NCBI GenBank assembly: GCA_011364925.1 | Contig: RDOA01000012.1 | Span: forward strand, 1-64,000 | Direction: 5' to 3' | Source of the DNA: Promethearchaeota archaeon | GTDB lineage: Archaea > Asgardarchaeota > Lokiarchaeia > Sigyniarchaeales > SOKP01 | Length of the DNA: 64,000 bases | Shown: positions 8,392 to 30,157 of the stretch, in pieces | Layout: each line of letters opens with the position of its first letter | Position numbering within the stretch: the stretch's first letter is position 1 | Notes under the pieces: model-generated | What the model was told of the DNA's origin: nothing | The model's database searches: none | Seen by the model: the letters and a program-made list of their open reading frames with translations, nothing else | Translations under genes and position numbers: made by a program

Positions 8392-9309
8392 ATTAAATTT
8401 CTTATTATCACATCAGAAGAAGATAAAGCATCTATGAATATGCGAGGGATTCTTTTGGATTCTAAAAAGTACTCGAATACAGAAATAGATTTAGTTTGGG
8501 ATGGAAATCCAGTACTTGTATTAGATGCCGTCTCAGCTGAAAAACAGAACGAAGAATATTTAAAACAAAACCAAATCTATTTAGCTTTGACTTCAAAACC
8601 ATTAATTTTCTTAGATGAATTTAATATTGTTAAAAGTAGACTAAATCCAGATTTAATCATATTCGCTAGCAGACATAGTTCAGCTACAGCAAAACCGGCA
8701 TTCTTAGTACATACTACCGGAAACTGGAGTAGTAATAATGAGTTTGGAGGCAACCCTAAGGATTTATCCAAGACGAGTGCGCTACTTCATAAAGCTGGTT
8801 TTCATTCTTTAGAGAGGCAAATTAAGAAATATAATTTTGCAAAGTTTTCAGTAGATATTGAAGTAACTCATCATGGCCCAACAACTTTAGATGTTCCGTT
8901 AATTTTCATGGAATTAGGAAGTAGTAAACAAGAATGGATAATAAAAGAAGCGGGAGAACTGGTAGCTAACGCAATAATCAATACAGTATTTAAATATCTA
9001 GATTTTAAGAAGCAGGATAATCAACAAGTTGCTTTAGGATTTGGCGGAGCTCACTATGCTCCTAACTTTAAGAGGTTATTAACTAACAATAGTATCGCGT
9101 TATCATTTATTTGCCCTAAATATTACATCCGAGAATTAAACGAGGAGCTAATTAAACAGATGATTAGGAACACATTAGAAGAAATTGATTATTTCATAGT
9201 AGATTGGAAAGGCACTAATTCTGTAGATAAAAAACAATTGATTCCATTACTGGAGAAATTTGATATTCCAATTAAAAAAACGAGAGATTTTTCAAACATA
9301 TCAACTTGA
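8392..9309 (+). CDS. dtdA: Archaeal D-aminoacyl-tRNA deacylase (DTD2/GEK1 family); probable ATT start at 8392 (ORF track start 8434)
   Basis: FASRHSS, VHTTGN, EVTHHGPT, FMELGS, GFGGAHYAP; in-frame upstream IKFLIITSEEDKAS matches the family N-terminus; GGTGA at 8381-8385. Confidence 0.9.
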   Translation: MKFLIITSEEDKASMNMRGILLDSKKYSNTEIDLVWDGNPVLVLDAVSAEKQNEEYLKQNQIYLALTSKPLIFLDEFNIVKSRLNPDLIIFASRHSSATAKPAFLVHTTGNWSSNNEFGGNPKDLSKTSALLHKAGFHSLERQIKKYNFAKFSVDIEVTHHGPTTLDVPLIFMELGSSKQEWIIKEAGELVANAIINTVFKYLDFKKQDNQQVALGFGGAHYAPNFKRLLTNNSIALSFICPKYYIRELNEELIKQMIRNTLEEIDYFIVDWKGTNSVDKKQLIPLLEKFDIPIKKTRDFSNIST

Positions 9310-23690: not shown

Positions 23691-24092
23691 ATGGATTTTG
23701 ACGAGGAATTTGATAAGGAGTTCGACGAAGAATTGGAGGAGGATTTTGACGAAAACTTAGATGAAGATTTTGACGAACCTACTTCAAAAACTCCTCCTGA
23801 CGATGTTAAAGTTAAGACTCCAGAACCTCATCTCCCTCCTGAAGGAAAAAAGATATCTGTATTTTTTCTTTCTACTATTGGTCCGGGAGAAAAAAAACAA
23901 AAATTACTAGTATATACTGGTAATAAAGTTGGAGACATTAAAGATACTGTGGCAAATTTGTTTGCGCTAGATCCATCCGATTTCCATTTGTCTTCAGGAG
24001 GAGTGACAATGGATGAGACATCTTACCTAAGCGATTATAATGTAGATGAAGGAGATGACATATTATTAATTCCTGCTAGCGTAGCAGGTTGA
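23691..24092 (+). CDS. Ubiquitin-like protein with acidic N-terminal extension, ending ...SVAG
   Basis: Beta-grasp pattern KVGDIK...FHLSSGGVTMDE...LSDYNVDEGDDILLI (compare ubiquitin [28 protein letters not shown]); free C-terminal Gly. Confidence 0.88.
   Translation: MDFDEEFDKEFDEELEEDFDENLDEDFDEPTSKTPPDDVKVKTPEPHLPPEGKKISVFFLSTIGPGEKKQKLLVYTGNKVGDIKDTVANLFALDPSDFHLSSGGVTMDETSYLSDYNVDEGDDILLIPASVAG
23694..23777 (+). repeat. In-frame degenerate 12-bp tandem repeat (7 units) encoding [D/E/N][F/L][D/E][E/K]
   Basis: gattttgacgag gaatttgataag gagttcgacgaa gaattggaggag gattttgacgaa aacttagatgaa gattttgacgaa. Confidence 0.8.
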
Positions 24093-24133
24093 GAACTAAG
24101 AAAGATATAAAAATCTTAAATTATTTTTTCATT

Positions 24134-24922
24134 CTATTTTTTTCTCGATGGTATTAACGCGATCTCGTCATCGTCGTCAATAGAATAATCCCTTATCTGC
24201 TTTGATTCGTCTAACAATATCCCACCGGTGGATAGGAGAAAATCTTCTAAAGCATAATCAAATAGAATTCCGACTTGTTCCTTGAGGATATTTACTAATT
24301 CTGAAGTTTCAATAACGATTATTTTGGTTTTCTCGCCAGGTTCGACTAATGATCTTACATAAACGCGAATCTTATCATCCATTCCAATAGTGGTCAGTGG
24401 TGGGTTGTACTGCACTTTTTCATTAGTTCTTTCCTTATATTGCAAGATATCTTTAATTAACCGTTTTCTTTCGCTAGGTTCAAAATATAGCATTTCTCTG
24501 ATAAAAAAGATTTTATCCATCTTTGATAACCCTAGCAAATCAATTTTGTCTAATTCTTCTCTATTGAACAATGTAAAAATGTAATCGTCGAAGGTCTCAA
24601 TTTTTTCAAAAGTTTCATCGCTATCTGCATATTGATCTACTAATGGCATAGCTTCGAAGTAATCTTCGATTAGTTCGCTTGTAGTTCTATGTATTGGATT
24701 TAACTTTTTAGCGTATTTATCTTTTTTTATCTTTTTAGCGGGACTACCCGTAGAAGATACAACGGTATAGATCGTGCCCGTTGACAATACCGCAACGCTC
24801 CCAACAGTTAGAAAGAGGAATAGAGGTAAACTTTCTATCTGCATTAAGAAAAAAATCAAATAGAGTATTGCAAAAACAATGTAAAGAGTTAAAATACTTA
24901 GAATTCTAAATTTTTTTTTCAT
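24134..24922 (-). CDS. Membrane-anchored (2 TM) protein with C-terminal non-conjugatable Ubl domain
   Basis: Two hydrophobic N-terminal segments; C-terminal PGEKTK...DFLLSTGGILLDESKQIRDYSIDDDDEIALIPSRKK is paralogous to the neighbouring Ubls. Confidence 0.85.
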   Translation of the reverse strand: MKKKFRILSILTLYIVFAILYLIFFLMQIESLPLFLFLTVGSVAVLSTGTIYTVVSSTGSPAKKIKKDKYAKKLNPIHRTTSELIEDYFEAMPLVDQYADSDETFEKIETFDDYIFTLFNREELDKIDLLGLSKMDKIFFIREMLYFEPSERKRLIKDILQYKERTNEKVQYNPPLTTIGMDDKIRVYVRSLVEPGEKTKIIVIETSELVNILKEQVGILFDYALEDFLLSTGGILLDESKQIRDYSIDDDDEIALIPSRKK

Positions 24923-25000
24923 GGTTTTTTGGCGAATCTATTCTCTAAATTTATGATTTAAATGGTATCTAATAAATCGCATTGGTATAACTTTGTAATT

Positions 25001-25675
25001 TTATATATCATAAGGAACTGATTTTCTAATATTCTCATATCTCTTGGAGTCTAATTTATATAAATCTCTTTTTTTATCTTTTTCAATTGATATTAATTTT
25101 AAATTCATTAAAATTTCAAGATATTTTTTAATTGTATTGTAATTACCTTTTAGGATAGAAGCTATTTCAGTAATTTTCAAAGAATTATCTTCACTCTTTA
25201 ATAGATTTATAATCTCACGAACGATTTCTTGCTTTAAATAATAATATATCTCGTCTAAATCTGGATCTGAATCGTAATCAAAAATAATTCTTTGATTCTC
25301 TATTTTCTTCGACCGTGTAAATCTGAACTTTTCTAAACATGATAAATGCCATAACGCTTGATTACTTCCAATATTTATTGCTTTCATTATTTCATTTACA
25401 TTGGATGGAGTCTTTCGGATATAATTATAAATTTCATTTCGGATTGGATGTTCAATAATGTTATTTTTCATTAATCTAGTTCCAGGGATTAGAATTCTTT
25501 TTTTAATAAGGTTTTTAATAAAGATTTCGATACTATTTCTGTTCAATTCAGGATTAGCTCTTACCCTATTATTGATGAACACCACGATATCTTCGACAGA
25601 AAAGAACGGTTTCTTTTTTAAATATTCCTCTATTAGACCACAGACAATAGATTGAAGGCTATCAGGCTTGCTCAT
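25001..25675 (-). CDS. Tandem winged-HTH (ArsR-like) regulator
   Basis: RNEIYNYIRKTP...WHLSCLEKF and KITEIASILKGNYNTIKKYLEILMNLKLI. Confidence 0.8.
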   Translation of the reverse strand: MSKPDSLQSIVCGLIEEYLKKKPFFSVEDIVVFINNRVRANPELNRNSIEIFIKNLIKKRILIPGTRLMKNNIIEHPIRNEIYNYIRKTPSNVNEIMKAINIGSNQALWHLSCLEKFRFTRSKKIENQRIIFDYDSDPDLDEIYYYLKQEIVREIINLLKSEDNSLKITEIASILKGNYNTIKKYLEILMNLKLISIEKDKKRDLYKLDSKRYENIRKSVPYDI

Positions 25676-25944
25676 AAGCTTATTGTTTTAATGTGTTGAA
25701 TTATACGATTTTTATAATCAAATCTTCTCTCTAAAAGGATATTTTTCAATTTATATATATTGATAAACAATCATTTAATTTATAAGTATATTAAACTAGG
25801 CATTTTAATCTTAATGAATACATTTTTTACATATAACTTAAAAATCTTCAAAATCATTCCAATCGGTTTTTTAACTCAATATTTTCACCATTAATATAAG
25901 TCTAAAAAAAAACTTAAACTAAAAAAACCAAGGAAGCGATTTGA

Positions 25945-26277
25945 ATGAGTTTTGAAGAAGATTTTGATGAGGAATTAGAACCAGTTAAATCTAAAACCCC
26001 ATCAAGTAAAACACCCTCAACAGGTAAGAAGTTGACTTTATATTTTATGTCAACTATTGGTCCTGGTGAAAAGAAGGAGAAGTTAACTGTCAATGATGCA
26101 AATCGGGTAAGTGATATTAAACAGACATTAGGAAATCTATTCGGTCTTGATCCAGATGAATTTCACTTATCATCTGGAGGTGTTACAATGGATGAGAATA
26201 GTCAATTAAAAGATTATAATGTCAATGACGGCGACGACATTCTTTTGATTCCAGCAAGTACTGCGGGATTAAATTAA
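25945..26277 (+). CDS. Ubiquitin-like protein with acidic N-tail and AG-LN pro-peptide end
   Basis: Close paralog of 23691..24092 (STIGPGEKK, FHLSSGGVTMDE, DYNV.DGDDILLIPAS.AG); directly upstream of the E1. Confidence 0.9.
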   Translation: MSFEEDFDEELEPVKSKTPSSKTPSTGKKLTLYFMSTIGPGEKKEKLTVNDANRVSDIKQTLGNLFGLDPDEFHLSSGGVTMDENSQLKDYNVNDGDDILLIPASTAGLN

Positions 26278-26310: not shown

Positions 26311-26345
26311 AAGGGCTTTAAGCCCTTCAATTTTTTTATTTTTTT
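26311..26345 (+). terminator. Inverted repeat plus T-tract between Ubl and E1
   Basis: AAGGGCTT-T-AAGCCCTT (26311-26327) followed by caatttttttattttttt. Confidence 0.55.
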
Positions 26346-26356
26346 GAACAATATTA

Positions 26357-27592
26357 ATGGTGATAATATTGCATAAGGATTCAGATTTTTTTGCAAAGGG
26401 ATTGTCAGAAGAAGAGAGAGACTTATACGATCGTCAATTTCGTTTAGAAGGATGGTCCCAAAAATTAGTAAAAAAATCGAGAGTTTTAATCGCGGGAGTA
26501 GGAGGGTTAGGATGTGAAATTGCTAAGAATTTAGCTATGTTAGGGGTAGGCCATATAGATCTCGTGGATCTAGATATCATCGAACACTCTAACTTAAACC
26601 GCCAAGTTCTGTTTGCAGGCGCAAAGCTGGGAGAACCGAAAGCAATTGCGGCTGCAAAAAAGTTAGCTGAAATTAATCCTAATATTATTGTTAATGGATA
26701 CCATTCATCGTTAGAACGATTAGAGCCCTCTCTCTACTATAATGCTGATGTTGTTATAGGGGGACTTGATTCAATGAATGCGAGATTAAATTTAAACGCT
26801 CAATGTATTAGATTTAGGAAACCATTAGTAGATGGAGGGGTTTCTGGCTATTATGGACATGTATATACAATATTCCCATATCGGAATGCATGTTATGAAT
26901 GCAATCCGCTGCCAGATGTGGCAAGTGATGAAATGGCAGCTTGTACCGTAGTTGGTATCCCTCGAAAAAGAATTCATTGCGTTTTTAAAGGAGATATGGC
27001 CTTCAAAGAAAAATTTGATAGAGATCCGAATCCTAAAAATGTAGAAGAGATAAGGTTTATTCAAAAAGTTGCAAATGAACTTGTTACAAAACACAATTTC
27101 TTTCCTGAATATACAGAAGATGATATTGTAAAAATTATTGATCGCCATGATCCAGGAATTATAACAATAAACGCAACAATATCAGCTTTACAATCTCACG
27201 AAGCGATTAAAATCCTTCATTGGAAAAACGGTCATAAAGGATTAGGTGAACCAATTATAAATTATATGATATTTAATGCTATGACAATGAAATTATACCA
27301 CATTGAAAAGAAGAGAAATCCAGAATGTTCTCAATGTGGTAAAAATGTGAGACGCGTTGTAATTAAAATGAGAGAAAACTCTCCATGCATGAATATAATT
27401 AAAATATTACAAAAAAATGGATACAAATTAGAATCGGAATTTGAACCAGTATTAACTCTTTTGGATTTTAACGATATAATTGTTCTAGATTTAGAGCAAA
27501 ATCCAATTCAAAATGGTTTGAGGATTTACGAATTTCTCACGGTTGCGGGGTTTGAAGGAGGAGAAATATACGTAACCTTAAAATTTAAATAA
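26357..27592 (+). CDS. Ubl-activating enzyme E1 (ThiF fold, UBA2/UBA3-like)
   Basis: YDRQ, GVGGLG, SNLNRQ, Zn site CYEC...CSQC, catalytic-Cys motif ACT followed by PRKRIHC, C-terminal extension. Confidence 0.93.
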   Translation: MVIILHKDSDFFAKGLSEEERDLYDRQFRLEGWSQKLVKKSRVLIAGVGGLGCEIAKNLAMLGVGHIDLVDLDIIEHSNLNRQVLFAGAKLGEPKAIAAAKKLAEINPNIIVNGYHSSLERLEPSLYYNADVVIGGLDSMNARLNLNAQCIRFRKPLVDGGVSGYYGHVYTIFPYRNACYECNPLPDVASDEMAACTVVGIPRKRIHCVFKGDMAFKEKFDRDPNPKNVEEIRFIQKVANELVTKHNFFPEYTEDDIVKIIDRHDPGIITINATISALQSHEAIKILHWKNGHKGLGEPIINYMIFNAMTMKLYHIEKKRNPECSQCGKNVRRVVIKMRENSPCMNIIKILQKNGYKLESEFEPVLTLLDFNDIIVLDLEQNPIQNGLRIYEFLTVAGFEGGEIYVTLKFK

Positions 27593-27658: not shown

Positions 27659-28186
27659 ATGAGTATAAGAAGTAGTCGAGTCTCTCGAGATTTTGCGGGA
27701 CTTAAAAGATTGCTAAAGGAAGGTACCATCATCCAATTAAAGCCATTTAATCCAAAAAAAAAGAGTATTGATCACTTAGCTTTAACGGTTAAAGGTCCTA
27801 AAGGAACAGCTTACGCAGGAGGATTGTTCAGATTGGAAATGAAGTTTCCTGTTCAGTACCCTAAACAACCTCCTTTTGTGAGATTGCACACTCCTATTTG
27901 GCATCCAAATTTTTGGCCAAAACCTAATGAATATAAAGGACAAAGAAATATTTGCTTAGCGTTAGTAGATCCGTCTCTAGTGGGGACAAAAGGTGGATGG
28001 AGCCCTTCGAAAACAGCTGTTACAGTTGTTCAAGCAATCATTGCTATGCTCAACACGCGAGGTAAGTATGTCAATCCAACTGATGTGTTTAATAAAAAAG
28101 CAGCGATAGAAATGATAAAGGATCCTAAAATGTTTGAAAAGAAAGTGAAAAGCTTAACTAAGAAATACGCTAAGGATAAATGGTGA
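27659..28186 (+). CDS. Ubl-conjugating enzyme E2 (UBC fold)
   Basis: GPKGTAYAGGLF, FP.QYP..PP, WHPN, ICL catalytic Cys, WSPS. Confidence 0.95.
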   Translation: MSIRSSRVSRDFAGLKRLLKEGTIIQLKPFNPKKKSIDHLALTVKGPKGTAYAGGLFRLEMKFPVQYPKQPPFVRLHTPIWHPNFWPKPNEYKGQRNICLALVDPSLVGTKGGWSPSKTAVTVVQAIIAMLNTRGKYVNPTDVFNKKAAIEMIKDPKMFEKKVKSLTKKYAKDKW

Positions 28187-28193
28187 TTATGGA

Positions 28194-29003
28194 ATGGGCA
28201 TTGACGAAAATAATTCTAGTTCCATTAGAGATGCGATAAAACAGAGAATTAAAGAGAAAATTAAAAAAGAACTCCTCGAAGAAGTGTACACTGAATTACA
28301 ATTAGAAGAATTACAAGAAGAAATAACCGCTGAATTTATCGATGTAAAACCGATAAATCACTCTAAATATATCAAAGCTAACCTTGAACCAATTCCAATG
28401 GAACCCGTAGTAGAAACTGTGGCTAGAAGCGATAAAATTGAAGCGACTATAACAATCACGATAAAAGCAGTTCTTAAAATCGCCAGTCATTCTCTCAAAT
28501 ATGCGCATTCAAAAATACCTAGAGAACAATGGGTAGAAGTAATTGGCTTACTCGCTGGAAAGTATAATGAGTCTAACGGAATATTACATATTGAAGATGC
28601 TTATCCAATGGGGCATGGTACAGCGGTGTATGCTGAAATAAAGGATTATAAGAATTATGTTAGAGCTTTTAAAGATATCAAGAAAAAAAAGGGCTTATTC
28701 ATAGCAGGATGGTATCATAGCCACCCAAGTTATAGTTGCTTTATGTCAAGGGAAGATTTAAGCACACAGGCTAGATATCAAAAGCTTTGGGACAAAGCCG
28801 TTGCACTCGTAATCGATCCATTTTTAATTAACGGAAGATCAGTTGGATTTGAAATTTACCGCGCAAATTTTAAAACAAAGAAATGGTTTTCAGTGCCTTT
28901 TGAAATTAAAGGGCATTTAGATATTCGCATGTTACCGGAGATTATAGAATTCATGAATCCGATAATAGAAGGGAAACCAGCCTATTTAGAATATGATGAG
29001 TAA
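28194..29003 (+). CDS. JAMM/MPN+ metallo-isopeptidase (Rpn11/CSN5-like)
   Basis: EVIGLL, GWYHSHP-x5-S-x2-D, Q..YQ, AVALVIDP. Confidence 0.93.
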   Translation: MGIDENNSSSIRDAIKQRIKEKIKKELLEEVYTELQLEELQEEITAEFIDVKPINHSKYIKANLEPIPMEPVVETVARSDKIEATITITIKAVLKIASHSLKYAHSKIPREQWVEVIGLLAGKYNESNGILHIEDAYPMGHGTAVYAEIKDYKNYVRAFKDIKKKKGLFIAGWYHSHPSYSCFMSREDLSTQARYQKLWDKAVALVIDPFLINGRSVGFEIYRANFKTKKWFSVPFEIKGHLDIRMLPEIIEFMNPIIEGKPAYLEYDE

Positions 29004-29035: not shown

Positions 29036-30157
29036 ATGGTTAAAAATAAAACCTTAACAATCATTTTTGCTATTTTTTTAGTTATTGGGGTAATTCATGG
29101 TTTAATCTCTCTTTCTTTTTTAAATTTTGCAACCTGGGTTTTAATAGGATTATGGGTAATATTTACAATAAAATTATATGTAAACATAAAACGGCACCGT
29201 GAGTTTAATTCGCCACATAATACTGCATTTTTTGTCATTATTCCGTTAACTATTGGAATATTTTACTCAATTTGGGGCTATTATACAGGAATTCTAGGAG
29301 AAAATTTACTCGGTGGAGTATATTTTAGTCTATGGAGCTTAATTTTTGCTTTTCCTTTTGTGATCTATGGATCCTACTCATTATATCGATGTTTCAAGAA
29401 ATACAATGTAATATATTTTGGGACCAAAGCTGTGAAAGCCCGAAAATTGGGATACATTCTTTCTTTTTCAGTTCTTATTTTTATTTTGATTTATTGGATA
29501 AGTTTTTATAGCGCAATTGAGAGTTTTCCGTTGGATTTGAATCTCTTAATACTATTTATAGCTACAATTTTAGTCGTAATAATATTTGGTTTTACTAATT
29601 CTCGTCCATCATTACCTACTTTAACACGCGATTATATTGCAAATCGTACTAGAACAATAAACAATTTAACTACGCCTACAACACAACGACAGCGTTTACG
29701 GACTACAAGAGTAACCGCTCCTACTCCATCTACTAGAGCAACAACACAAACTTCAAGATCGAGAACTCATTCGTCAAGAATAACCCCTACATCACATAGA
29801 CAAACTACAAGAACTAAAACAACAAAAGTTACACACACAACTACTGTTAAACCTACTTCCAAAATTCGGAATATTAATAATTATAAACCCAGAGCATCGT
29901 ATTTGTCATTAGAAGATTTTAAGTGTATCTTTTGTTTTAAGCTACCAAAACTTCCTGATGACAAGGGTCGAGGAGTGGTTATATGTCCAAATTGCAGATA
30001 TCCCTCCCATGCGGATGAATTCAAAGATTGGATGCGCACTTCAAATCTTTGTTCGCGTTGTAGTGCTCCTATTCCTACCAGCTTTAGGCGTAATCCCAGT
30101 ATAGTAAGTGTAAAGAACTACATTATTGCTTATAAACAATTGTTAAAACGCAAATAA
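29036..30157 (+). CDS. Multi-pass membrane protein with Thr/Arg-rich linker and C-terminal RING-like domain; putative E3 ligase
   Basis: About 6 hydrophobic segments; CIFC...CPNCRYPSH...W...CSRC; last gene of the E1-E2-JAMM run. Confidence 0.78.
   Translation: MVKNKTLTIIFAIFLVIGVIHGLISLSFLNFATWVLIGLWVIFTIKLYVNIKRHREFNSPHNTAFFVIIPLTIGIFYSIWGYYTGILGENLLGGVYFSLWSLIFAFPFVIYGSYSLYRCFKKYNVIYFGTKAVKARKLGYILSFSVLIFILIYWISFYSAIESFPLDLNLLILFIATILVVIIFGFTNSRPSLPTLTRDYIANRTRTINNLTTPTTQRQRLRTTRVTAPTPSTRATTQTSRSRTHSSRITPTSHRQTTRTKTTKVTHTTTVKPTSKIRNINNYKPRASYLSLEDFKCIFCFKLPKLPDDKGRGVVICPNCRYPSHADEFKDWMRTSNLCSRCSAPIPTSFRRNPSIVSVKNYIIAYKQLLKRK

What the first reader, a model, noticed from the sequence alone, without database searches (positions are those of the whole stretch)
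23691..26277. Ready and pro-form Ubl pair: ...SVAG* versus ...STAG-LN*
Seen: two close paralogs, one ending in a free Gly and one with a 2-residue cap; neither has di-Gly. Established: E1 adenylation needs a free C-terminal Gly, JAMM proteases can mature Ubl precursors, and single-Gly ends occur in UFM1 and ATG8. Inference: Ubl-2 is gated by the JAMM enzyme while Ubl-1 is constitutively activatable, giving two-tier control. The two are also in separate transcription units.
Basis: partly seen in the sequence, partly recalled or inferred. Interest (0 to 1): 0.7.

Follow-up and report, generated by a model that had tools for sequence, protein, structure and literature searches.

The report
Asgard ubiquitin-like pair with throw-away tail
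Two sister ubiquitin-like tag genes of a Loki-type Asgard archaeon do differ as described (one ends at its reactive glycine, the other carries two extra residues), but in relatives this tail comes and goes on both genes, so it is an ordinary disposable precursor tail and not a built-in two-level switch.

Summary
Ubl-1 (23691-24092) ends ...IPASVAG*. Ubl-2 (25945-26277) ends ...IPASTAG-LN*. They are 67% identical, neither has Gly-Gly, and they sit in separate transcription units.

The locus is the Lokiarchaeial (Promethearchaeota) eukaryote-type ubiquitylation cluster: Ubl, a canonical-type E1, a UBC E2, an Rpn11-like JAMM and a membrane RING protein. Its gene order is conserved in about 50 species.

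The cap is not paralog-specific:
- Among 51 loci holding both genes, 31 are free/free, 9 have only Ubl-2 capped, 8 have both capped and 3 have only Ubl-1 capped.
- At least 6-8 state changes occur on the E1 tree.
- The window's three nearest relatives have free Gly on both genes. LN is read where they have a TAA stop (here TTA).

Tandem poly-Ubl genes elsewhere (...STAG|acidic N-extension...) imply cleavage after Ala-Gly. The JAMM's nearest solved relative is Caldiarchaeum Rpn11, which trims pro-ubiquitin, and the JAMM is kept in loci with no caps.

Most likely the tail is short, labile and removed by the JAMM. A conserved two-tier design is not supported. This is a new member of a known kind, of modest interest. 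The scan reached a similar "drifting cap" verdict on a different Asgard Ubl.

The parts
23691..24092 (+). Ubl-1: 133-aa ubiquitin-like modifier with a long acidic N-terminal extension, ending in free Ala-Gly (Gly133 = GGT 24087-24089, stop TGA 24090-24092); monocistronic
   Evidence: Orthologues occupy the same position in 52 loci; 41 of these end in free Gly and 11 are capped. The N-extension has a median of 51 aa and is 44% acidic.
25945..26277 (+). Ubl-2: 110-aa ubiquitin-like modifier that leads the enzyme operon; the mature end is Ala107-Gly108 (GGA 26266-26268), followed by a 2-residue cap Leu-Asn (TTA AAT 26269-26274) and stop TAA
   Evidence: (PF00240 30.1 bits against a cut-off of 25.4). 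AlphaFold2 gives a beta-grasp for residues 29-103 with pLDDT about 90. Foldseek's top hit is Caldiarchaeum ubiquitin.
26269..26274 (+). The cap itself: TTA AAT, read where the nearest relatives have the stop TAA followed by 3' untranslated sequence
   Evidence: alignment A1: window GGA TTA AAT TAA against L004/L005/L008 GGA TAA ACT TA.... The LN tail is not seen in any of 120 homologue clusters.
26311..26345 (+). Conserved stem-loop (AAGGGC-TTT-GCCCTT) followed by T7-A-T7, lying between Ubl-2 and E1: a terminator- or attenuator-like element
   Evidence: (z = -2.55), and 59 (present in 52 of 62 loci by a strict pattern; the others carry compensated stems such as GGGG...CCCC).
24134..24922 (-). 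Membrane protein with a C-terminal Ubl domain that lacks the Gly (ends IPSRKK): a non-conjugatable third paralog
   Evidence: Conserved between the two free Ubl genes in about 55 loci, always ending IPxRK/NK....
25001..25675 (-). ArsR-type winged-helix protein, divergent from Ubl-2
   Evidence: PF01022, E 1.8e-7; conserved position.
26357..27592 (+). E1-like activating enzyme of the canonical type (ThiF fold, CxxC zinc site, catalytic Cys aligned with that of SAE2)
   Evidence: PF00899, E 4e-58.
27659..28186 (+). UBC-type E2 (HPN motif and Cys present)
   Evidence: PF00179, E 7e-25.
28194..29003 (+). Rpn11-like JAMM/MPN+ metalloprotease with an intact HSH-x7-S-x2-D motif; candidate maturase and deconjugase
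   Evidence: sequence; PF01398, E 2e-15; best solved relative is CsRpn11, 6fjv, E 1.4e-17.
29036..30157 (+). Multi-pass membrane protein with a C-terminal RING-like zinc finger; candidate E3

Best explanation
Both genes encode conjugatable ubiquitin-like modifiers of one Lokiarchaeial family. Its hallmark is an invariant ...IP-x-S-x-Ala-Gly end, and that Gly is the residue a canonical-type E1 adenylates. Residues after the Gly form a short, evolutionarily labile, disposable tail. The tail appears and disappears through small changes at the stop codon on either paralog. It is tolerated because the cell has an endopeptidase that cuts after Ala-Gly. That enzyme is most probably the Rpn11-like JAMM in the same operon, whose main conserved job is likely deconjugation. 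In this genome Ubl-2 therefore needs one trimming step (loss of Leu-Asn) and Ubl-1 does not, but this is a young, lineage-specific accident and not a conserved two-tier control. The stable differences between the paralogs lie elsewhere. Ubl-1 has a long acidic N-terminal extension, a few distinct beta-grasp residues and its own transcription unit. Ubl-2 heads the enzyme row and is followed by a conserved hairpin plus T-run. Shown here: the sequences, the conservation, the lability, the synteny, the fold and the enzyme types. Inferred: cleavage after Ala-Gly, the JAMM as the maturase, and E1 activation of Ala-Gly.
For: (1) Ala-Gly is invariant. All 120 closest clusters end IP[AS]S[ST]AG plus 0-3 residues, 34 of them with no tail. 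The same holds in 80 genomic loci and in representatives clustered at 50% identity, with tails of 0-6 residues. (2) The cap is labile on both paralogs. The 2x2 table is 31/9/8/3, with at least 8 and 6 changes on the E1 tree of 48 loci and no detectable link between the two states. (3) The window's nearest kin (E1 up to 92% identical) have free Gly on both genes, and the window has TTA where they have the stop TAA. In L013, Ubl-1 has TGT where the window and L004 have the stop TGA, and it reads CYIERI up to the same downstream TAA. (4) Cleavage after Ala-Gly is implied by head-to-tail poly-Ubl genes. P0121 has three units and P0122 has two, and each junction is ...STAG followed by an acidic stretch like the N-terminus of the single-unit proteins. 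(5) The JAMM motif is intact. Its best solved relative is CsRpn11, which cleaves the 87-aa Caldiarchaeum pro-ubiquitin to expose Gly78 (PMC6043591). A Helarchaeial pro-ubiquitin with a 4-residue tail is also described (10.1101/2023.07.25.550441). (6) The JAMM is retained in 25 of 31 free/free loci; the other six are cut by a contig end or an N-run. Maturation therefore cannot be its only role. (7) Only short caps persist: 1-4 aa on Ubl-2 and 2-7 aa on Ubl-1, against medians of 27 and 9 codons if the stop of free-Gly genes were simply read through. (8) The E1 and E2 are of the canonical type and the E1 catalytic Cys is aligned. The fold is closest to Caldiarchaeum ubiquitin.
Against: There is no biochemistry for this family. 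Cleavage after Ala-Gly, the identity of the protease and E1 acceptance of a penultimate Ala are all inferred. CsRpn11 was characterised on a Gly-Gly substrate and is highly specific. The genome has about seven other JAB/MPN open frames, so another enzyme could be the maturase. Some caps, such as YF, are stable across whole clades (10 of the 62 operon loci; 38 of the 120 clusters). That could reflect selection on the peptide, although the surrounding non-coding DNA is equally conserved. The cap-length comparison is not corrected for phylogeny. A kinetic consequence of the LN cap in this one organism cannot be excluded.
Confidence: 0.72

Rival explanations
1. One reading: the cap is a regulatory gate. 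Ubl-2 supply is limited by JAMM activity while Ubl-1 is constitutively activatable, giving two-tier control of conjugation.
For: In this genome the asymmetry is real. The two genes are in separate transcription units, and Ubl-2 is co-transcribed or co-located with the JAMM. The same asymmetry (Ubl-1 free, Ubl-2 capped) is the commonest mixed state, at 9 of 20 mixed or capped loci. Plant ATG8 families also hold cleavage-free and cleavage-requiring paralogs, for which a fast-response role has been proposed but not shown (PMC7669990).
Against: 31 of 51 loci have no cap on either gene, 8 have caps on both and 3 have the reverse asymmetry. There are at least 6-8 state changes on a shallow tree. The window's nearest relatives are free/free and the cap differs from their stop codon by one base. 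Cap sequences are unrelated to one another and AT-rich, like the 3' flank they come from. The JAMM is kept where there is nothing to mature.
Confidence: 0.08
2. The tail is removed, but by a protease other than the operon JAMM (one of the other JAB/MPN proteins or an unrelated peptidase); the operon JAMM only deconjugates.
For: The genome has about seven JAB/MPN open frames, one of them next to another ThiF-type gene on contig C65. The operon JAMM is conserved irrespective of caps. CsRpn11 is very substrate-specific.
Against: Synteny of this JAMM with Ubl-2 is universal in complete loci. Its nearest characterised relative does both jobs, and no non-JAMM DUB homologues are reported in archaea (PMC6043591).
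Confidence: 0.12
3. The LN cap is not biological: it is a sequencing or assembly error, or a rare strain variant in a metagenome-derived assembly, at the stop codon (TAA read as TTA).
For: The LN tail is unique among 120 homologue clusters and 62 operon loci. The nearest relatives all carry TAA at that codon. The assembly has 112 contigs and 4.2% estimated contamination.
Against: The window also differs from its relatives at neighbouring positions (a C/T change and a 4-base insertion just downstream), as expected of real divergence. Capped orthologues are common, so nothing about the state is implausible.
Confidence: 0.05
4. Capped copies are never cleaved and act non-covalently, like ubiquitin-domain proteins, so Ubl-2 here has left the conjugation pathway.
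For: A non-conjugatable Ubl domain does exist in the locus, in the membrane protein ending IPSRKK.
Against: Capped and uncapped orthologues are equally well conserved, at over 80-90% identity including the IPASTAG end. Capped copies keep the operon-leader position before E1. Poly-Ubl genes argue for cleavage.
Confidence: 0.03

Closest known systems
Caldiarchaeum subterraneum ubiquitin operon (pro-CsUb, E1, E2, small RING, CsRpn11; PMC5654768, PMC6043591)
   Same: The gene set is the same: Ubl, canonical-type E1, UBC E2, RING and an Rpn11-like JAMM in one cluster. The Ubl is made with a short C-terminal tail that must be removed. The JAMM is the nearest solved relative of the one here, and CsUb is the best structural match to Ubl-2.
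   Different: CsUb ends Gly-Gly plus 9 residues, whereas here the end is Ala-Gly plus 0-7 residues. This locus has two free Ubl paralogs plus a membrane Ubl-domain protein. The RING protein is a multi-pass membrane protein, and each Ubl carries a disordered N-terminal extension. Nothing here has been tested biochemically.
Helarchaeial Asgard ubiquitin system with pro-ubiquitin (GG + Ser-Pro-Lys-Asn; 10.1101/2023.07.25.550441)
   Same: It is an Asgard E1/E2/RING cascade with a short-tailed pro-form; the mature form was shown to be conjugated in vitro.
   Different: It has a Gly-Gly end, is linked to ESCRT genes and is a different Ubl family. The Lokiarchaeial STAG family was not addressed in the papers I could search.
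Plant ATG8 isoforms with exposed Gly (ATG8h/i) versus ATG4-dependent isoforms (PMC7669990)
   Same: Paralogs in one genome differ in whether the reactive single Gly is already exposed, and the state varies between related species.
   Different: ATG8 is lipid-conjugated through ATG7/ATG3 and trimmed by a cysteine protease. Here the enzymes are of the canonical E1/UBC type and the candidate protease is a JAMM.
Eukaryotic ubiquitin, NEDD8 and SUMO precursors and polyubiquitin genes
   Same: They have variable, non-conserved residues after the reactive Gly. Head-to-tail poly-modifier genes need endoproteolytic release; compare P0121 and P0122.
   Different: Eukaryotic precursors are trimmed mainly by cysteine DUBs or ULPs (general knowledge). 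The repeating unit here includes an acidic N-terminal extension, and the penultimate residue is Ala.
UFM1 (single Gly, 2-residue propeptide)
   Same: It has a single Gly at the end and a 2-residue cap.
   Different: The E1 here is far closer to UBA2/UBA1/UBA3 than to UBA5 (E 1e-36 against 1e-14), the E2 is a classical UBC, and no UFM1 structure is among the top fold matches. The resemblance is only superficial.

Membership tests
Ubiquitin-family beta-grasp modifiers (Pfam PF00240) | Beta-grasp fold (beta-beta-alpha-beta-beta-3/10-beta) | tested here: met
   The AlphaFold2 model of Ubl-2 has residues 29-103 at pLDDT about 90. All 500 Foldseek matches counted have E <= 0.001; those listed are ubiquitin-type beta-grasp chains, and the best is Caldiarchaeum ubiquitin 6fno_D (E 1.3e-7).
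Ubiquitin-family beta-grasp modifiers (Pfam PF00240) | Sequence match above Pfam's gathering score | tested here: met
   Ubl-2 scores 30.1 bits against a cut-off of 25.4. Ubl-1 alone scores 17.7 bits, below the cut-off, but is 67% identical to Ubl-2.
Ubiquitin-family beta-grasp modifiers (Pfam PF00240) | C-terminal Gly-Gly | tested here: not met
   Both paralogs and all relatives have Ala-Gly. A single conserved terminal Gly is present.
Ubiquitin-family beta-grasp modifiers (Pfam PF00240) | Covalent attachment to targets through the terminal Gly | not testable with these tools
   Inferred from the invariant Gly and the adjacent E1, E2 and RING genes.
Archaeal eukaryote-type ubiquitylation operon (Caldiarchaeum/Asgard type) | Ubl, E1, E2, RING-type protein and Rpn11-like JAMM encoded together | tested here: met
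   Pfam hits; the same order in about 50 loci. The RING was read from the Cys/His pattern only; there is no Pfam hit.
Archaeal eukaryote-type ubiquitylation operon (Caldiarchaeum/Asgard type) | JAMM with a complete metal-binding motif (E...HxHx7Sx2D) | tested here: met
   HSHPSYSCFMSRED is present in ORF 28194-29003 and aligns with CsRpn11 across the motif.
Archaeal eukaryote-type ubiquitylation operon (Caldiarchaeum/Asgard type) | JAMM trims the Ubl precursor to expose the Gly | not testable with these tools
   Shown for CsRpn11 only (PMC6043591).
UFM1 / ATG8-type single-Gly systems | Non-canonical E1 (UBA5 or ATG7 type) and a matching E2 (UFC1, ATG3 or ATG10) | tested here: not met
   The E1 is nearest SAE2, UBA1 and UBA3 (E 1e-36 to 1e-32), against 1e-14 for UBA5 and 7e-8 for ATG7. 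The E2 is a classical UBC.
   All four combinations occur; there are at least 8 and 6 changes on the E1 tree; the nearest kin are free/free.

The most novel reading that the evidence does not exclude
In some Lokiarchaeial lineages, this one included, the short tail after Ala-Gly is a genuine gate, so that release of the operon-leader Ubl depends on JAMM activity while the acidic-tailed Ubl-1 is always ready. More broadly, the whole STAG family would then be a ubiquitin-type system in which a canonical E1 and an Rpn11-like protease have co-adapted to an Ala-Gly end, with polyubiquitin-like precursor genes already present in Asgard archaea.
Probability: 0.08. Interest if true: 0.55.

Novelty: new member of a known kind. 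Interest (0 to 1): 0.33.

Why it matters
Asgard ubiquitin-type systems are the best available models for how eukaryotic ubiquitylation began. This analysis shows that the main Lokiarchaeial modifier family has a fixed Ala-Gly end, not Gly-Gly. It also shows that precursor tails drift freely on both paralogs, and that tandem poly-modifier genes exist. Together these predict an Ala-Gly-specific trimming activity, probably the Rpn11-like JAMM. The practical point for anyone reconstituting this pathway is to express the modifiers ending at Gly and not to read regulation into the tail. The specific claim of two-tier control would have been a new regulatory principle, but the comparative evidence argues against it.

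Tried and rejected
- UFM1/ATG8-like system: rejected. The E1 and E2 are of the canonical type and the fold is nearest ubiquitin, ISG15 and NEDD8.
- Cap as a paralog-specific trait: rejected.
- Coupling between the cap states of the two paralogs: the independent-pairs test had too few informative pairs, so there is no evidence either way.
- Sigma-70 promoter scan: not meaningful for an archaeon. Only the terminator-like hairpin was used from it.
- Literature on an Ala-Gly Lokiarchaeial Ubl: nothing specific was found. Hatano et al. 2022 does not discuss C-termini. Absence from the searched library is not proof that the feature is unpublished.
- TGA recoding at the Ubl-1 stop: unlikely, because orthologues use TAA, TGA or TAG at that position.
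- Simple neutral read-through as the sole origin of caps: not sufficient, since observed caps are much shorter than virtual read-through lengths. Only short tails seem to persist.
Full report
**What is there.**
- The ORF at 23691-24092 (+) encodes a 133-aa protein ending ...LLIPASVAG, with stop TGA.
- The ORF at 25945-26277 (+) encodes a 110-aa protein ending ...LLIPASTAGLN, with stop TAA.
- The two are 67% identical over 95 residues, E 2e-46.
- Ubl-2 passes Pfam's ubiquitin model (30.1 bits against a cut-off of 25.4). Ubl-1 scores 17.7 bits, below the cut-off.
- A third copy of the domain (37% identical to Ubl-2) forms the C-terminus of a 262-aa membrane protein at 24134-24922 (-). It ends IPSRKK with no Gly.
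- The whole genome (3.9 Mb, 112 contigs) holds only these three copies.

**Surroundings.**
- Downstream of Ubl-2, on the same strand, lie four genes:
  - a ThiF-fold E1 (26357-27592);
  - a UBC E2 (27659-28186);
  - a JAB/MPN+ protease (28194-29003) with an intact HSH-x7-S-x2-D motif;
  - a multi-pass membrane protein with a RING-like finger (29036-30157).
- Ubl-1 stands alone between two minus-strand genes, so the two Ubl genes are in separate transcription units.
- Homologues are annotated as Promethearchaeota, i.e. Loki-type Asgard archaea.
- The gene order is nucleotidyltransferase-like(-), coiled-coil(-), Ubl-1(+), membrane-Ubl(-), wHTH(-), Ubl-2(+), E1, E2, JAMM, RING(+). It recurs in about 50 of the 80 genomic loci fetched.

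**What kind of system.**
- The E1 is closest to SAE2/UBA2, UBA1 and UBA3 (E 1e-36 to 1e-32). It is far from UBA5 (1e-14) and ATG7 (7e-8).
- Its ...ACTVVGIPRKRIHC segment aligns with the SAE2 segment GCTIRNTPSEPIHC. From my own knowledge, that segment carries the SAE2 catalytic Cys.
- The E2 is a classical UBC.
- The JAMM's best solved relative is Caldiarchaeum Rpn11 (6fjv, E 1.4e-17), followed by eukaryotic Rpn11 and CSN5.
- The AlphaFold2 model of Ubl-2 has a disordered N-terminus (residues 1-27) and a confident beta-grasp (residues 29-103).
- Its best structural match is Caldiarchaeum ubiquitin bound to its Rpn11. Ubiquitin variants, ISG15, NEDD8 and Hub1 follow. No UFM1 or ATG8 entry is among those listed.
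- A profile search of solved structures likewise returns ubiquitin.
- This is a canonical-type ubiquitylation cluster. The likeness to UFM1 or ATG8 is limited to the single Gly.

**The Gly is conserved; the cap is not.**
- Among the 120 closest protein clusters (all over 80% identical to Ubl-2), IP[AS]S[ST]AG is invariant. What follows is nothing (34 clusters), YF (38), RLI (10), YI (7) or some twenty other 1-3-residue tails. LN never occurs.
- In representatives clustered at 50% identity the same ...S-x-A-G end persists, with tails of 0-6 residues.
- Classifying genomic copies by position gives the following:

| Copy | Free Gly | Capped | Cap length |
|---|---|---|---|
| Operon-leader (Ubl-2) | 40 of 62 | 22 of 62 | 1-4 residues |
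| Upstream (Ubl-1) | 41 of 52 | 11 of 52 | 2-7 residues |

- Among the 51 loci with both genes:

| State | Loci |
|---|---|
| Both free | 31 |
| Only Ubl-2 capped (the window's state) | 9 |
| Both capped | 8 |
| Only Ubl-1 capped | 3 |

- On a maximum-likelihood tree of the linked E1 (48 loci), the fewest state changes are 8 for Ubl-1 and 6 for Ubl-2.
- The window's nearest relatives are L004, L005 and L008; the closest, L004, has an E1 92% identical. All three have free Gly on both genes.
- At the DNA level they read GGA TAA ACT TA..., where the window reads GGA TTA AAT TAA. The cap is therefore encoded by what is stop codon and 3' flank in the relatives.
- In L013, Ubl-1 has TGT where the window and L004 have TGA. 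It runs on to the same downstream TAA, giving CYIERI.
The inference that cap status distinguishes the two paralogs is contradicted.

**Evidence that the tail is removed.**
- Capped copies are as conserved as uncapped ones and keep their place before E1, so they are functional genes. A canonical E1 needs a free carboxylate on the Gly (established knowledge).
- Two metagenomic proteins are head-to-tail arrays of this Ubl. P0121 has three units and P0122 has two.
- Each junction in these arrays reads ...STAG, directly followed by an acidic stretch like the N-terminus of the single-unit proteins. The last unit ends STAG-VL or STAG-IY. Such genes make sense only if something cuts after Ala-Gly, as with polyubiquitin.
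- CsRpn11 cleaves the 87-residue Caldiarchaeum precursor to expose Gly78 and also deconjugates. No non-JAMM DUB homologues are reported in archaea (PMC6043591).
- A Helarchaeial pro-ubiquitin with a 4-residue tail has been described (10.1101/2023.07.25.550441).
- The operon JAMM is the best candidate, but the genome has about seven other JAB/MPN frames.
- The JAMM is present in 25 of 31 loci where neither Ubl is capped. The other six are cut by a contig end or an N-run. Trimming cannot be its only conserved role.

**The tails are not wholly neutral.**
- If the stop codon of free-Gly genes were simply read through, the extension would have a median of 27 codons for Ubl-2 and 9 for Ubl-1.
- Observed caps are 1-4 and 2-7 residues (Mann-Whitney p 2e-9 and 0.004, not corrected for shared ancestry).
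- Only short tails seem to be tolerated.

**What really distinguishes the paralogs.**
- Across loci, Ubl-1 has a longer and more acidic N-terminal extension (median 51 aa and 44% Asp/Glu, against 27 aa and 24%).
- Ubl-1 also differs at a handful of fixed beta-grasp positions: ISV versus LTL in strand 1, a Q/E and an E/Q swap, and VA versus LG.
- Ubl-2 is followed by a conserved stem-loop plus T7-A-T7 (26311-26345) before E1. This element is found in 52 of 62 loci by a strict pattern, with compensated stems in others.
- That element could let Ubl-2 be made in excess over the enzymes.

**Verdict.**
The mechanistic core is plausible and in line with known archaeal and eukaryotic precursors: a cap blocks activation and a JAMM can remove it.
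- The two-tier control reading is not supported, because the cap is a young, drifting character on both genes.
- A published parallel exists in plant ATG8 families, where exposed-Gly and cleavable isoforms coexist and vary between species (PMC7669990).
- I file this as a new member of a known kind, of modest interest. The more useful by-products are the invariant Ala-Gly end served by canonical-type enzymes and the poly-Ubl genes.
My conclusion rests on the analyses above and not on that note.

Noticed in passing
window 26311-26345: A stem-loop (AAGGGCTTTAAGCCCTT) followed by T7-A-T7 lies between Ubl-2 and E1. The whole 80-bp spacer is about as conserved as the coding sequence. The element is found in 52 of 62 loci, and other loci carry compensated stems (for example GGGG...CCCC in L083 and AGGC...GCCT in L028). 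It looks like a terminator or attenuator that could set the Ubl-to-enzyme ratio.
   Followed up: partly
P0121 (372 aa) and P0122 (250 aa), metagenomic proteins: These are head-to-tail tri- and di-Ubl genes of the same STAG family. Each unit includes its acidic N-extension and a KSKTP motif, and the junctions read ...STAG|ADDDFEDF.... They are polyubiquitin-like precursor genes, presumably from Asgard archaea.
   Followed up: partly
P0125, P0128, P0131, P0132, P0136, P0152 and others: Proteins of 270-565 aa carry this Ubl at the very C-terminus, ending ...STAG with or without a short tail.
   Followed up: no
window 24134-24922 (-): A membrane protein has a C-terminal Ubl domain that lacks the Gly (IPSRKK). 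It is conserved between the two free Ubl genes in about 55 loci. It is a non-conjugatable, membrane-anchored ubiquitin-like domain of unknown role.
   Followed up: partly
L019, L031, L037, L038, L047, L048, L052, L053, L055, L059, L065, L067, L072, L075, L077, L080, L082: Many other Lokiarchaeial genomes carry an extra stand-alone Ubl-2-like gene away from any E1/E2 (mostly free Gly, some capped IF, CF or IY). The window's genome has none.
   Followed up: no
own genome G000: C65:79-555 (-) and C65:798-1109 (-); C41:13-450 (-): A second ThiF-type open frame sits next to a JAB/MPN frame on contig C65, and a second UBC-type frame sits at the edge of contig C41. The genome may hold another Ubl-type pathway.
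   Followed up: no
window 23691-23850 and orthologues: The N-terminal extension of Ubl-1 is long (median 51 aa), 44% acidic and variable in length (0-94 aa). Both paralogs carry KTP-type motifs just before the beta-grasp. Other notes of this scan discuss these motifs as possible acceptor sites.
   Followed up: no
L079 (CP070831.1) 8699-8798; L083 7792-7891 and 13620-13719: Runs of 100 N interrupt these loci, in L079 inside E1. The apparent lack of E2, JAMM and RING there is a data gap and not a gene loss.
   Followed up: yes
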